A stretch of DNA of 64,000 bases from Escherichia coli (GTDB taxonomy: Bacteria; Pseudomonadota; Gammaproteobacteria; Enterobacterales; Enterobacteriaceae): assembly GCF_045037415.1 (NCBI RefSeq), contig NZ_CP173440.1; one strand, written 5' to 3'. Position 1 is the first letter of the stretch. The number at the start of each line of letters is the position of its first letter. The position numbers are program-made. Positions 39,001 through 42,000 of the stretch are shown one piece after another.

Positions 39001-42000
39001 TCTACTGGCATCGCCTCATGCGCCCGGCAGGTTTGATTGCTGTGGCGAATGAAGTCACTTCCGGCGCGATCGTCACCTTATGTTCTGCCTCGCCGGAAAT
39101 TGTACTCAGACCCTTTGCCGAAAAACTTAGGATCAAACTGATTGGTACACAATTAGAGACAAAAGACGGCATTCTGACCGGCAGAATCAGTGGTCATAAT
39201 TGCAGGTGCTCACAGAAAATTGTCCGGCTTGAAAAAGAATATGGACCTCTGACTGACTATCATCTTCGAGCATGGGGTGATACGCGGGGAGATTATGAAC
39301 TCCTTTCCGCAGCGACTGAGCCTCACTGGCGTCACTTCCATCAAGGTTTCCGTCGTAAGCTAATCATCAGATAAAAATTGCCCTTTATCGTTATGTAATT
39401 TCTTCTTTACATAAAAGTAACATATATTCTACATTTAACCACTGTAACTGGTGAAAAAAAGAGTGCATCCTGGTAAATCGGTAGCTCGGACTATTAGGTA
39501 TGCTTCAACCTGTTACCATTGGAATACCTACTTTCAGCCCGCTTTTCCGAGCGGGTTTTTTTCATCCCTGCCGATGTGTTCCTGGGTCTAAATTACTGGG
39601 TGAAATTGGGTTTCAGCGATCACATCTGCGTATAGCCCTGTTTAGCTCTGCGTACTTTGAAAAGGTGTCGTCATGGCAGCAGGCCTATCGCCCCTTACCG
39701 GGGCGATGAGTCAGATAATGCCTTCCTTTTTTGCCAGTCCAAGCCAGTCTTTGAACTCTTCGAGAAGTTTTTCATACAACTCTTCGTCCTTAATGTGGGC
39801 AAAATTATCGATCGCAAAAAAGTTGCTGTTGTCTACGCGACGGTCGCTAAAGGTGTCCAGCCTCTCCAGAATCCCATAATTTGATCCGCCCAGTCCCACG
39901 AACTTCCAGAAGACAGGATAGTTGGCTGAGCGGCGGATGGCCTCTTTAATTTCTCGTGTTTTGCAGATCCCGCCATCTGTAATGCACACGACAAAAACGG
40001 GTAAGGTGCTTTCCTTGAAATAATCGATAACCTCATTCATGACTGGCGGCTCATTGTTCGTCCCGCCAAGGCCGGGAAGGATTTCCCAGGCCGATCGTTT
40101 ACCCGTGTTCTGAATGGCAGCAATGTATCCGTCAAGATTGTCCAGTGTGACGTCAGGATATTTCTTGTGACGCTCAGCAAAGCCCCATACATCCATCGTG
40201 CCGTCATCGTCGAACTGGACAGACAGGACAGCTATACGGTCAAGAACGGCCTGTACATGTCCTTTTTTAAACTGGCCGGTCATAGAGCCTGAGGCATCGA
40301 GAACAAAAGCGACTCGTGCTTCAACGGTATCCAGTTTGTGTTTTGCCAGTGAAATACTGGCTTTCTTAGCCAGGCTGATAAGCGCAGGCGCTTTACCTTC
40401 GAGTTTCTTTTCAAGGCTGATCCGGGCTGGTTGCGGTACAACTTCTGCTGCAGGTTCCACGTCCACACCATAGCTGACTGCCAGTGGCTCAAGCCCGCCA
40501 TTAAATCCCTGCCCAAGCGCCCTGAGCTTCCAGTTGCCCTGGTATCGGTAAACTTCCCCCATAATTACAGCCTTTTCTGTGCGGCCATTGAGATCGACAA
40601 AAAAGGTGGCCTGACTTTCAGCAGAAAGTTTCAGTTGCGCGAGGCCGCTTATCGTATCACTGCCATCTATCACCATAGTGATTGCAATCTTCTGAATCGT
40701 ATCCGGGATCTGCTCAAGCGCAAAATGAACGACTGCGTGCTGGTGACCGGGGTTGAGTTTCACACTGCCACCGGCAGCACTGAGATTGTTGTAAAAGATA
40801 AAATCGGCATCGCCTGTCACTTTTCCCTCAGCATTCAGCATAAACAGGCAAGTCTCAGGGGGACTGTGAAATCCAGGACTGGGGGGATAATCAAGCCGGA
40901 GAGTCAGTGTAGCTGTGTGAAGCGGAATGTTCTGCCCTGATTGTAATTGCATTTAGGCTCCTTGTTGCCGGGTAAAGGGATCTCTCAGCGGGTAGAAAAA
41001 ACCCCGGACAGGCCGGGGTTTGGTTTTACTGGTTTATCAGATGTTGATGCCGTGCTGGGTTGCCAGCGCAGCCAGGCCACCAGCAAAGCCCTGTCCTACA
41101 GCCTTAAACTTCCATTCCGCGCCATGGCGATACAGTTCACCGAAAATCATTGCGGTTTCAGTAGAGGCATCTTCTGACAGGTCAAAGCGTGCAATCTCGG
41201 CGCCATTATCGTTGTTCACCACACGCATAAAGCTGTTACTGACCATGCCGAAATTTTGCTTACGGCTGTCTGCTTCATGAATGGTGACTGCGAATACGAG
41301 CTTCTTAACGTCTGCGGCCACTTTTGTCAGATCAATTTTGACCTGCTCATCGTCACCGTCGCCTTCACCGGTACGGTTGTCACCCTGATGCTGTACTGCG
41401 CCATCCGGGCTGGTGGTGTTGTTATAAAATACGAAATGCGAATCGGACAGCACTTTACCGTTTTCGCCAACAAGGAATACTGATGCATCCAGATCAAATG
41501 CCTGACCATCAGTAACGCGTGCATCCCAGCCCAGGCCAACCAGAGCAACATTCATGCTCGGGGCTTCTTTAGTCAGAGAAACATTACCGCCTTTAACGAG
41601 AGAAACAGCCATTTTTTGCTCCTGCTAATCGTAGATATCGGGTCGTGGATATCGGGGGCATCACCCCCGAATGATTTGGGTAAGAAAGTTACTTTTTATC
41701 AGGACGCGTTGATGCCGTACTGAGCGCACACGGAAGCCAGTCCACCAGCATAACCCTGGCCAACCGCACGGAATTTCCATTCTCCGTTGTGACGATACAG
41801 CTCCCCAAACAGCATGGCAGTTTCAGTAGAAGCGTCTTCTGTCAGATCGTAGCGAGCAACTTCAGTCTGATTGTCATCATTCACCAGACGGATAAATGCG
41901 CCGGAAACCTGACCGAAGCTCTGGCGACGAGCCTGAGCATCATGGATAGTGACAACGAAAATAATTTTGTCGACATCCCCAGGTACCGCGTCCAGTTTGA

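What the first reader, a model, noticed from the sequence alone, without database searches (positions are those of the whole stretch)
39375..39565. Intergenic segment ending in a strong plus-strand terminator, possible small RNA
A canonical terminator (39538-39562) lies about 165 nt downstream of the HAD gene and just before the terF 3' end, with no plus-strand ORF of substance between. The segment could encode a small RNA or be a long 3' UTR.
Basis: inference. Interest (0 to 1): 0.2.

Follow-up and report, generated by a model that had tools for sequence, protein, structure and literature searches.

The report
Phage-derived small-RNA module beside ter
The gap between the HAD and terF genes of this Klebsiella virulence plasmid holds a copy of an unnamed RNA-like unit otherwise found in temperate Klebsiella phages (promoter-like site, long hairpin with a 30-base invariant tip, strong terminator); it probably gives a ~120-nt small RNA of unknown target, and at the least it stops transcription from running into the tellurite-resistance genes.

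Summary
A strong plus-strand intrinsic terminator (stem-loop 39536-39557, T-run to 39562) lies 164 nt after the HAD stop codon, with no credible ORF between.

The segment is not anonymous spacer. Window ~39429-39565 is homologous to a compact unit ("module X") found in 26 temperate Klebsiella phages, 36 E. coli prophages and at least 120 IMG/VR contigs. In phages it sits between the Q antiterminator gene and the lysis genes, directly after the known prophage sRNA STnc100.

The unit has a promoter-like site, a ~75-nt irregular hairpin, a short linker and a terminator with a U7 tail. Its 30-nt apical core (39469-39498) is identical in the plasmid and phage copies, while the flanks are only ~47-55% identical.

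It matches no Rfam 15 family. It is not Esr41 or MavR, the two sRNAs known from ter islands.

The plasmid copy carries no STnc100 part. It recurs in ~1000 plasmids, 940 of them Klebsiella, and varies less than the neighbouring intergenic DNA.

Best reading: a phage-derived small-RNA gene giving a ~122-nt RNA (39441-39562), and certainly the HAD terminator. Expression, Hfq dependence and targets are untested, and covariation support is inconclusive. Modest interest: a new sRNA-candidate family on a clinically important plasmid.

The parts
38739..39374 (+). HAD-family hydrolase gene. Its transcripts have no terminator before 39536.
   Evidence: ORF. Pfam PF12710, E = 4e-22. Annotated as HAD family hydrolase WP_011251321.1 in an identical plasmid.
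39406..39411 (+). -35-like hexamer TTTACA of the predicted module promoter
   Evidence: Promoter scan, 9 of 12 matches with an 18-nt spacer. Not above chance on its own. Sequence homology with the phage copies cannot be shown this far upstream.
39430..39435 (+). -10-like hexamer TACATT. It corresponds in position to the TATGTT/TATGGT/TATGAT kept in the phage copies.
   Evidence: The alignment with phage group c (L008) reaches this point, CTACATTTAAC against CTATGGTTAAC.
39441..39562 (+). Predicted ~122-nt RNA ('module X' transcript). The 5' end is inferred from the -10-like site and the 3' end from the terminator.
   Evidence: MFE -34.4 kcal/mol, z = -2.5. Homologous over 39453/39455-39562 to phage and prophage copies.
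39444..39451 (+). 5' arm of the outer helix (GTAACTGG). It pairs with 39509-39516.
   Evidence: MFE folds of the window and of 11 phage variants show the same GUAAC:GUUAC helix. Helix 1 is 93% paired across 58 variants.
39454..39460 (+). Run of seven A in the internal loop. An A-rich stretch is kept in all variants.
   Evidence: Alignment A2. Predicted unpaired.
39461..39468 (+). 5' arm of the middle helix (GAGTGCAT). It pairs with 39500-39506 (ATGCTTC).
   Evidence: Helix 2 is 88% paired, and 2 of its pairs show changes on both sides.
39469..39498 (+). Invariant 30-nt core CCTGGTAAATCGGTAGCTCGGACTATTAGG, the apical stem-loop of the hairpin
   Evidence: One exact match in the window, none expected by chance. 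Only 1 of 30 columns varies across 58 variants, against 23/27 and 33/37 in the flanks. In the sample not selected for the core, the one newly retrieved copy (L155) has a single mismatch. One plasmid lineage, pINF201.2, has 3 changes.
39500..39516 (+). 3' arms of the middle and outer helices (ATGCTTC ... CCTGTTAC)
39517..39535 (+). Largely single-stranded linker ending in the conserved CCTAC-TTTC motif just before the terminator
   Evidence: CCTAC and TTTC are at least 90% conserved in A2. High unpaired probability.
39536..39562 (+). Intrinsic terminator: stem-loop 39536-39557 with a T7 run at 39556-39562. It works on the plus strand only.
   Evidence: and the sequence. Kept in all homologues. 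The minus-strand reading is followed by TGAAAGT, which is not a U-tract.
39687..39707 (-). G+C-rich hairpin ATCGCCCC/GGGGCGAT 3 nt after the terF stop codon, with no U-tract. A possible weak 3' end or stabiliser of the ter transcript.
   Evidence: Read from the sequence. Conserved in plasmid variants. The terminator scan did not call it.
39711..40952 (-). terF-like gene (TerD plus vWA-TerF-like domains), the last gene of the convergent ter operon
   Evidence: ORF. Pfam PF02342 and PF10138. Annotation.

Best explanation
Window ~39429-39565 is a captured copy of a compact, so far unnamed transcription unit of temperate Klebsiella phages, here called module X. In phages it lies in the Q-to-lysis interval, directly after the prophage sRNA STnc100.

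On the plasmid it most likely gives a ~122-nt non-coding RNA (39441-39562). This RNA would start at a weak sigma-70-type promoter (TTTACA-18-TACATT). It would fold into a ~75-nt irregular hairpin whose tip is the 30-nt invariant core. It would end in a short single-stranded linker, a G+C-rich terminator hairpin and a U7 tail, which is the 3' architecture typical of Hfq-binding enterobacterial sRNAs.

The same terminator also ends HAD transcripts and keeps plus-strand transcription out of the convergent ter operon.

Shown: the terminator, the homology and synteny, the invariant core, and the pairing potential in all variants.

Inferred: the promoter and 5' end, the existence of a discrete RNA, Hfq binding, and trans-acting regulation through the invariant core. 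The strict sequence conservation of the core suggests it recognises a specific RNA or protein partner.
For: Homology:
- Window 39455-39562 matches 36 E. coli chromosomal prophages at 75-78% identity.
- It also matches 26 Klebsiella phages at 75-79%.
- The core pattern occurs in at least 120 IMG/VR contigs.

Synteny: the unit is always between a Q gene and holin or tRNA genes. STnc100 (RF02076, 78-88 bits) lies immediately 5' of it in all six loci tested.

Not the Q-dependent late promoter: the same unit and the same upstream sequence occur with four different Q architectures (PF03589, PF06576/DUF1133, PF06323, PF06530). A separate short unit sits next to Q (isrJ hit of 57 bits in L006).

Own promoter: hexamers TTGCCG, TTTACT or TTGCTC, a 16-nt spacer, then TATGTT or TATGGT are kept at one position in three otherwise divergent upstream groups. 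The window has TTTACA-18-TACATT at the same place.

Structure:
- The architecture is the same in the MFE folds of 12 variants.
- 95% of cells are paired, against 32-49% when the partners are slid.
- z = -2.5 for the predicted RNA.

Constraint: the core is 100% identical between the window and the phages, while the flanks are 47-55% identical. Within plasmids, X has 5/122 variable sites against 20/214 in the adjacent intergenic DNA (p = 0.09). With the most divergent plasmid added, the figures are 11/122 against 45/214 (p = 0.004).

Distribution: about 1008 plasmids, always in the order HAD, segment, terF.
Against: There are no expression data of any kind.

The promoter match (9/12, 18-nt spacer) is no better than chance on its own (2 found against 3.0 expected). 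Homology upstream of ~39429 is not demonstrable.

Compensatory changes do not exceed the controls. Only 2 pairs have changes on both sides, and native and chimeric flank combinations fold equally well (-20.4 against -20.8 kcal/mol).

In phages, STnc100 lacks its own terminator in front of the unit. There the unit may be only the 3' domain of a longer RNA, and the plasmid carries only that 3' part.

Most phage copies were retrieved with the core itself as the search pattern, which inflates its apparent invariance. One plasmid lineage carries 3 core changes that break two pairs.

The family is narrow: the exact core occurs in 1 of 100,044 species-representative genomes. Part of the conservation may therefore reflect youth or recombination rather than selection.

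No candidate target emerged.
Confidence: 0.5

Rival explanations
1. Inert phage relic that serves only as a terminator. On this view a fragment of a phage late-region leader was captured next to ter, and the plasmid uses only the intrinsic terminator, which ends HAD transcription and insulates the convergent ter operon. The hairpin and core persist through hitch-hiking and recent ancestry.
For: The plasmid lacks the STnc100 part that always precedes the unit in phages.

The plus-strand terminator is the first one after HAD and faces terF.

The promoter is weak. No covariation signal was found.

One plasmid lineage has a mutated core. The family has a narrow host range.
Against: The plasmid copy is ~45-53% diverged from the phage copies in the flanks. 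Even so, it keeps all 30 core bases, both helices, the linker motif and the promoter-like hexamers.

Within plasmids the unit varies less than the neighbouring non-coding DNA.
Confidence: 0.3
2. Long structured 3' UTR of the HAD mRNA. There is no independent promoter. Any small RNA would arise by RNase E processing of the HAD transcript, as a 3'-UTR-derived sRNA.
For: There is no terminator between the HAD stop (39374) and 39536, so read-through is unavoidable.

The predicted promoter is not better than chance.

The HAD-then-unit order is fixed in ~1000 plasmids.
Against: Promoter-like hexamers are kept at the same position in the phage copies, where no HAD gene precedes them.

This rival overlaps the best explanation. 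It differs only in how the 5' end is made.
Confidence: 0.25
3. The invariant 30-bp core works at the DNA level, not as RNA. It could be a protein-binding site or a short conserved 'linker' that promotes recombination between mosaic phage modules.
For: The sequence is invariant with no tolerance even for pair-preserving changes.

The flanks look mosaic: the natural chimera L029 combines a group-b 5' flank with a group-c 3' flank.

The core contains the direct repeat TCGG-TAGC-TCGG.
Against: The core is embedded in a unit with a fixed strand, a terminator that works in one direction, and flanks that stay complementary in all variants.

No candidate binding protein is linked to it, since the neighbouring Q, holin and other genes differ between phages.
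Confidence: 0.1
4. The segment encodes a small protein, from the 46-aa GTG ORF at 39451-39591 or the 69-aa ATG ORF at 39500-39709.
For: The ORFs exist. One deposited plasmid record annotates a hypothetical protein here.
Against: Both ORFs run through a strong terminator.

The phage homologues differ by 1-3-nt indels in the flanks, which break any common frame.

The core is invariant at every position, including would-be third codon positions.

RefSeq annotates nothing here.
Confidence: 0.02
5. It is one of the sRNAs already described in ter islands of pathogenic E. coli: Esr41 (OI-43/48, SpLE1) or MavR.
For: Both are encoded near ter genes. Esr41 is ~70 nt with a GC-rich palindrome and a long poly(U) (PMC8565820, PMC5286369). 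MavR lies in reverse orientation to ter (PMC8565329).
Against: Rfam 15 contains Esr41 (RF02676) and gives no match at E <= 1 in 38000-41000, or at the gathering score anywhere in the window.

Esr41 lies between z1181 and z1182, beyond iha.

The MavR qRT-PCR primers have no match with up to 3 mismatches anywhere in the window.

No E. coli chromosome gave a match spanning the intergenic segment. The 36 chromosomal matches cover only the module and, in the two loci inspected, lie in lambdoid prophages.
Confidence: 0.01

Closest known systems
STnc100 (Rfam RF02076) / PasD family of prophage sRNAs
   Same: It lies in the same genomic niche, the Q-to-lysis interval of lambdoid prophages. It is physically adjacent to module X in all six phage loci tested. 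Some STnc100-type 3' ends (L140, L145) share the linker and terminator style of module X. It is reported as prophage-borne and of uncertain function (bioRxiv 10.64898/2026.05.13.724894; PMC12370729).
   Different: The sequence and structure differ. The window gives no STnc100 match, and the plasmid lacks the STnc100 part. Module X replaces the terminator hairpin of canonical STnc100. It has its own promoter-like site and a 30-nt invariant core that is absent from 99 of 100 loci retrieved with an STnc100 motif.
Esr41 (Rfam RF02676), EHEC sRNA of the ter-carrying island SpLE1/OI-43
   Same: It is a horizontally acquired, terminator-ended small RNA encoded near a ter cluster. It has a GC-rich terminator hairpin plus a long poly(U), is Hfq-dependent, and regulates core-genome genes (cirA, chuA, bfr, fliC, LEE) (PMC5286369, PMC9387321).
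   Different: No sequence or covariance-model similarity. Its position differs (z1181/z1182) and so does its length (~70 nt against ~122 nt). Module X has no experimental support.
MavR, ~370-nt Hfq-dependent sRNA within the ter locus of EHEC (PMC8565329)
   Same: It is encoded in a ter locus on the strand opposite to the ter genes, and it is reported to be plasmid-borne in some Enterobacteriaceae.
   Different: The MavR primers are absent from the window. The flanking genes tested for MavR were terE and terF, not HAD and terF. Its size is three times larger.
Short terminated late-leader RNAs of lambdoid phages (lambda 6S RNA; StxS of Stx phages) and the phage anti-sRNAs AgvB/AsxR
   Same: These are phage-encoded small RNAs downstream of Q that end at an intrinsic terminator, are made in lysogens, and have in some cases been co-opted as trans-acting regulators. 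This rests on established knowledge and PMC4104026.
   Different: Module X is not the Q-proximal pR'-tR' unit. It occurs unchanged with four Q architectures, and a separate short unit (isrJ hit) occupies the Q-proximal position. It has no AgvB or AsxR match.
3'-UTR-derived sRNAs that share the terminator of an upstream mRNA (for example DinR in K. pneumoniae, PMC10907235)
   Same: The RNA would share its terminator with the upstream HAD gene, and it could be released by processing.
   Different: Here the 3' region is a foreign, self-contained phage unit with its own promoter-like site. It is not an evolved extension of the HAD mRNA.

Membership tests
Intrinsic (Rho-independent) terminator | G+C-rich stem-loop immediately followed by a U-tract on the transcribed strand | tested here: met
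   9-bp stem with 5 G-C pairs, a 4-nt loop and a T7 run at 39556-39562. Kept in 58 variants, 94.8% of cells paired.
Hfq-dependent trans-acting sRNA (enterobacterial type) | Terminator hairpin with a long 3' poly(U) tail (about 7 or more) preceded by a single-stranded U/A-rich stretch | tested here: met
   U7 tail. The linker AAUACCUACUUUCA is predicted unpaired.
Hfq-dependent trans-acting sRNA (enterobacterial type) | A discrete, stable transcript with a defined 5' end | not testable with these tools
   Only a 9/12 promoter-like match and conservation of the hexamer position in phages. No sRNA at this locus was found in the Klebsiella sRNA papers or supplements that could be searched.
Hfq-dependent trans-acting sRNA (enterobacterial type) | Hfq binding and base-pairing with target mRNAs through a conserved seed | not testable with these tools
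   A conserved 30-nt core exists but is mostly predicted paired. No target enrichment in phage loci. No host genome was available for target prediction.
Structured RNA family (evolutionarily supported secondary structure) | Base pairs maintained by compensatory changes on both sides, beyond what controls give | tested here: inconclusive
   95% of cells are paired against 32-49% in the slid controls, but only 2 pairs (7 cells) change on both sides, which does not exceed shuffles. The flank-swap test shows no native advantage.
STnc100 (RF02076) | Match to the Rfam covariance model at or above the gathering score (47 bits) | tested here: not met
   No match in the window at E <= 1 or at the gathering score. 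The model matches the DNA just 5' of module X in phages at 78-88 bits.
Esr41 (RF02676) | Match to the Rfam covariance model, and a location in SpLE1/OI-43 between z1181 and z1182 | tested here: not met
   No Rfam match. The location differs according to PMC8565820.
MavR | Sequence identity with the EHEC mavR locus, probed with the published mavR 3' qRT-PCR primers | tested here: not met
   Neither primer matches the 64-kb window with up to 3 mismatches.
Lambdoid late promoter-terminator unit (pR'-tR', 6S/StxS type) | Lies directly downstream of Q and carries a promoter region specific to that Q type | tested here: not met
   The same unit and the same upstream sequence occur with PF03589, PF06576, PF06323 and PF06530 Q proteins. 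It lies about 390-1470 nt from the Q stop codon. Another short terminated unit sits next to Q.
RfaH ops element (GGCGGTAGNNTG) | 12-nt ops consensus on the non-template strand with the essential G5 and T6, upstream of a long operon | tested here: not met
   The core has ATCGGTAGCTCG. It matches the central CGGTAG and the final G, and lacks G1, G2 and T11. Eight or more phage loci carry CGGAAG, a T6-to-A change. In the plasmid a terminator follows 50 nt later and there is no operon.

The most novel reading that the evidence does not exclude
The 30-nt invariant apical stem-loop may be a specific recognition element for a phage or host factor, acting as an RNA decoy, a sensor, or a kissing-loop partner. 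The virulence plasmid may keep a copy beside the ter cluster, which is associated with phage inhibition, so as to interfere with or sense late gene expression of superinfecting Klebsiella phages that carry the same unit. That would make it an RNA component of plasmid-phage conflict rather than an ordinary mRNA-targeting sRNA.
Probability: 0.1. Interest if true: 0.7.

Novelty: new member of a known kind. Interest (0 to 1): 0.4.

Why it matters
pK2044/pLVPK-type plasmids define hypervirulent K. pneumoniae, and no sRNA gene at this locus turned up in the literature that could be searched here. If module X is expressed, it would be a plasmid-borne regulatory RNA present in about a thousand sequenced Klebsiella plasmids and in many resident prophages. 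That would make it a possible route for cross-talk between plasmid, phage and chromosome, as Esr41 and MavR are for the ter island of EHEC.

It would also add an unrecorded RNA family, coupled to STnc100, to the catalogue of RNAs in the Q-to-lysis region of temperate phages.

If it is not expressed as a discrete RNA, the finding reduces to an ordinary terminator of phage origin.

Tried and rejected
1. Known RNA families. Rfam 15 gave nothing at E <= 1 on 38000-41000 or at the gathering score on the whole window. No tRNA or tmRNA was found.

2. Esr41 and MavR. Both were rejected by model, location and primer tests.

3. My first idea was that the core's TGGTAAATC is an extended -10 of a Q-dependent late promoter with a sigma-dependent pause. 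I dropped it for three reasons. The 5' flank pairs with the 3' flank in every variant. The unit is shared by phages with four different Q architectures. A distinct Q-proximal unit exists.

4. Covariation. RNAalifold on the MAFFT alignment recovered only the invariant helices. An explicit pair count and a flank-swap test gave no signal beyond controls.

5. Divergent homologues. A covariance model searched over 100 loci retrieved independently found only one more copy. A scan of 100,044 species genomes found one.

6. Targets. Duplex scans of the core against 30 phage loci did no better than shuffled queries. Host targets could not be scanned.

7. HAD as a phage moron travelling with the unit. 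No Klebsiella-phage homologue was found.

8. Literature and supplements. No mention of the core sequence in full text, and none in the supplementary files that were held and searchable. The supplements of the two hypervirulent-strain interactome papers were not held.

9. Homology upstream of ~39429 is not demonstrable.
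Full report
**Where the window comes from.** The segment and its flanks are 100% identical to the virulence plasmid pK2044 of K. 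pneumoniae NTUH-K2044 and to many pLVPK-type plasmids. The local order is a HAD-family hydrolase gene (38739-39374, +), a 336-bp gap, then the terF-like last gene of the ter operon (39711-40952, -) with terE, D, C, B, A and Z behind it.

**The observation.** The plus strand carries the stem-loop AGCCCGCTT-TTCC-GAGCGGGTT (39536-39557) running into seven T (39556-39562).
- It starts 164 nt after the HAD stop codon and lies 149 nt before the terF stop codon.
- The only plus-strand ORFs in between, of 46, 69 and 38 aa, all cross the terminator.
- Read on the minus strand, the hairpin is followed by TGAAAGT, so it works in one direction only.

**What the segment is.** Rfam 15 finds nothing here. 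A sensitive BLAST search, however, showed that window 39455-39562, which ends exactly at the terminator, has 75-78% identical counterparts in three sets:
- 36 E. coli chromosomes;
- 26 temperate Klebsiella phages;
- at least 120 IMG/VR viral contigs that carry the central 28 bases as a pattern.

In every annotated case the counterpart lies between a Q antiterminator gene and the holin or lysis genes, sometimes with a tRNA gene in between. I call this unit module X.

**Anatomy of module X.** Fifty-eight distinct variants were aligned (A2). They share the following parts.
- *Promoter-like hexamers at one fixed position.* The phages have TTGCCG, TTTACT or TTGCTC, then a 16-nt spacer, then TATGTT or TATGGT, although the spacers and upstream DNA fall into three divergent groups. 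The window has TTTACA-18-TACATT at 39406-39435.
- *A conserved 5' GTAAC(G)G and an A-run.*
- *A 30-nt core, CCTGGTAAATCGGTAGCTCGGACTATTAGG (39469-39498).*
- *A 3' flank ending in GTTAC.*
- *A linker with CCTAC-TTTC.*
- *The terminator.*

Separate MFE folds of 12 variants give the same picture. GUAAC pairs with GUUAC, a middle helix forms (window GAGUGCAU with AUGCUUC), and CCUGGUA pairs with UAUUAGG around an apical loop. The linker stays open and the terminator forms.

The predicted plasmid RNA (39441-39562, 122 nt) has an MFE of -34.4 kcal/mol and z = -2.5.

**How strong is the RNA evidence?** It is mixed.
- *In favour.* Across the 58 variants, 95% of pair cells are standard pairs, against 32-49% when the partners are slid by 1-3 columns.
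- *Against.* Nearly all variation is one-sided (G-C to G-U). Only two pairs change on both sides, which is no more than shuffles give. Swapping 5' and 3' flanks between variants does not weaken the fold (-20.4 against -20.8 kcal/mol).
- *Conclusion.* The hairpin is conserved as a pairing potential, but covariation does not prove it.

**The core.** The most striking feature is the core. It is 100% identical between plasmid and phages, while the flanks are 47% (5') and 55% (3') identical and the terminator is 77% identical. One of 30 core columns varies, against 23/27 and 33/37 in the flanks.

Most phage copies were fetched with the core as the search pattern, so I checked this independently. 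I retrieved 120 loci through a motif of the neighbouring STnc100 and searched 100 of the newly retrieved ones with a covariance model of module X.
- That gave one further copy, with a single core mismatch, and no diverged relatives.
- The family is therefore all-or-none.
- It is also narrow: the exact core occurs in 1 of 100,044 species-representative genomes, K. pneumoniae ATCC 13883.

**Relation to known phage RNAs.** In all six phage or prophage loci tested, the known prophage sRNA STnc100 (RF02076, 78-88 bits against a gathering score of 47) ends exactly where module X begins. The part of the STnc100 model that is normally its terminator aligns poorly there. In phages, module X may therefore also be transcribed as the 3' extension of STnc100.

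Module X is not the Q-dependent late promoter unit.
- The same unit with nearly the same upstream sequence accompanies Q proteins of four different Pfam architectures.
- A separate short promoter-terminator unit lies directly after Q. It appears as an isrJ match of 57 bits in L006.
- In L004, a stretch after Q ends in AACGATGGG, which I recall from memory as the pause sequence of lambda pR'. I did not test this.

The plasmid has no STnc100 part. Homology fades upstream of ~39429 and stops right after the T-run.

**Not the known ter-island sRNAs.**
- *Esr41* is encoded on the ter-carrying island SpLE1/OI-43, but between z1181 and z1182. It is ~70 nt long and has an Rfam model that does not match here.
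- *MavR* is ~370 nt and its neighbouring genes are terE and terF. Its published primers are absent from the whole window.

**The plasmid copy.** The segment occurs in about 1008 PLSDB plasmids: 940 Klebsiella, 49 Escherichia and a few others. In all six variants inspected it follows HAD, and terF lies downstream in five of them.
- Among five clean variants, module X has 5/122 variable sites against 20/214 in the rest of the gap (Fisher p = 0.09).
- Adding the most divergent plasmid, pINF201.2, gives 11/122 against 45/214 (p = 0.004).
- pINF201.2 has lost terF as a neighbour. It carries three core changes that break two pairs.

This is mild evidence of constraint on the plasmid and also a sign that the core can decay.

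**Mechanism.** Step by step:
- *Effectively certain:* the terminator ends whatever plus-strand transcription reaches it, including HAD read-through, and protects the convergent ter operon from antisense transcription.
- *Likely, about 0.5:* a discrete ~122-nt RNA is made from the unit's own weak promoter, or released from the HAD 3' UTR. Its 3' module (open U/A-rich linker, GC hairpin, U7 tail) is the one typical of Hfq-binding sRNAs.
- *Speculative:* the invariant core is the functional determinant, recognising a specific RNA or protein. I found no target. Scans of 30 phage loci did no better than shuffled queries, and host genomes could not be scanned.

**Rivals.** These are: an inert relic used only as a terminator; a pure 3' UTR; a DNA-level role for the core, as a binding site or recombination linker; a small protein, judged very unlikely; and identity with Esr41 or MavR, which is refuted.

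**Novelty and verdict.** I found no record of this unit.
- Rfam 15 has no matching family.
- Full-text searches and the supplements that were held do not contain the core sequence.
- The supplements of the two hypervirulent-strain interactome papers were not available to search.
- The main texts of those two papers do not mention an sRNA at this locus.

It is best filed as a new member of a known kind: sRNA-like genes carried by mobile elements, specifically RNAs of the phage late region. Interest is moderate. It is a concrete, easily testable sRNA candidate on the hypervirulence plasmid, with an unusually invariant core, but no expression or functional evidence yet.

Noticed in passing
L004 3566-3650; L006 3629-3707: Directly after the phage Q genes there is a separate short promoter-terminator unit. 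In L006 it scores as Rfam isrJ (57 bits against a gathering score of 37). In L004 the DNA after Q reads TTAATTTGTTCTAACGATGGG. From memory this resembles lambda pR' with its AACGATGGG pause sequence, and a terminator follows. The isrJ family may therefore be a Q-proximal late-leader RNA.
   Followed up: partly
L008 1481-1660 and 2434-2628; L240 3585-3779 and 4552-4731: Some prophages carry two STnc100 copies that bracket module X, one directly 5' of it and one about 700 nt 3' of it.
   Followed up: no
window 39478-39489: The invariant core contains ATCGGTAGCTCG. This shares the central CGGTAG hairpin-forming bases of the RfaH ops element (GGCGGTAGNNTG). Eight or more phage loci have CGGAAG instead, which argues against ops function. 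It is probably a coincidence.
   Followed up: partly
L140 ~12170-12206; L145 and L171 (STnc100-type 3' ends): Some canonical STnc100-type RNAs end in TTGCCAAC...TGCCTGCTTTTCCGAGCAGGCTTTTTTTT. This resembles the linker and terminator of module X (window GCCCGCTTTTCCGAGCGGGTTTTTTT; group c TTGCCAAC). Module X may have arisen by an insertion into an STnc100-type RNA.
   Followed up: no
window 39687-39707 (minus strand): A G+C-rich hairpin (ATCGCCCC GGTAA GGGGCGAT) sits 3 nt after the terF stop codon with no U-tract. No canonical minus-strand terminator was found in the gap, so ter transcripts may run antisense into module X.
   Followed up: no
window 39426-39455 (minus strand): A promoter-like site, TTCACC-18-TAGAAT, points back into the HAD gene and overlaps the 5' end of module X. 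It is one of only two promoter-like hits in 3 kb, which is not above chance.
   Followed up: no
window 37413-38282 (minus strand) and 36144-37007 (plus strand): Upstream of HAD there is an IS5-family transposase gene, annotated with an internal stop in an identical plasmid. There are also recombinase and Tn3 fragments and an alpha/beta hydrolase gene. The HAD, module X and ter block therefore borders a patch of mobile-element debris.
   Followed up: no
L132 (plasmid pINF201.2, CP110739.1) 401-563: This is the most divergent plasmid copy (92.6%). It has three changes in the otherwise invariant core (GGACTATT to GAACATTT). It is followed by a DJ-1/PfpI gene instead of terF, so the locus has been rearranged there.
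   Followed up: partly
L131 (MN956836.1) 504-860: One deposited plasmid record annotates a hypothetical protein across the terminator and the downstream spacer. The record also shows homopolymer-length differences that are typical of assembly errors. This looks like over-annotation.
   Followed up: no
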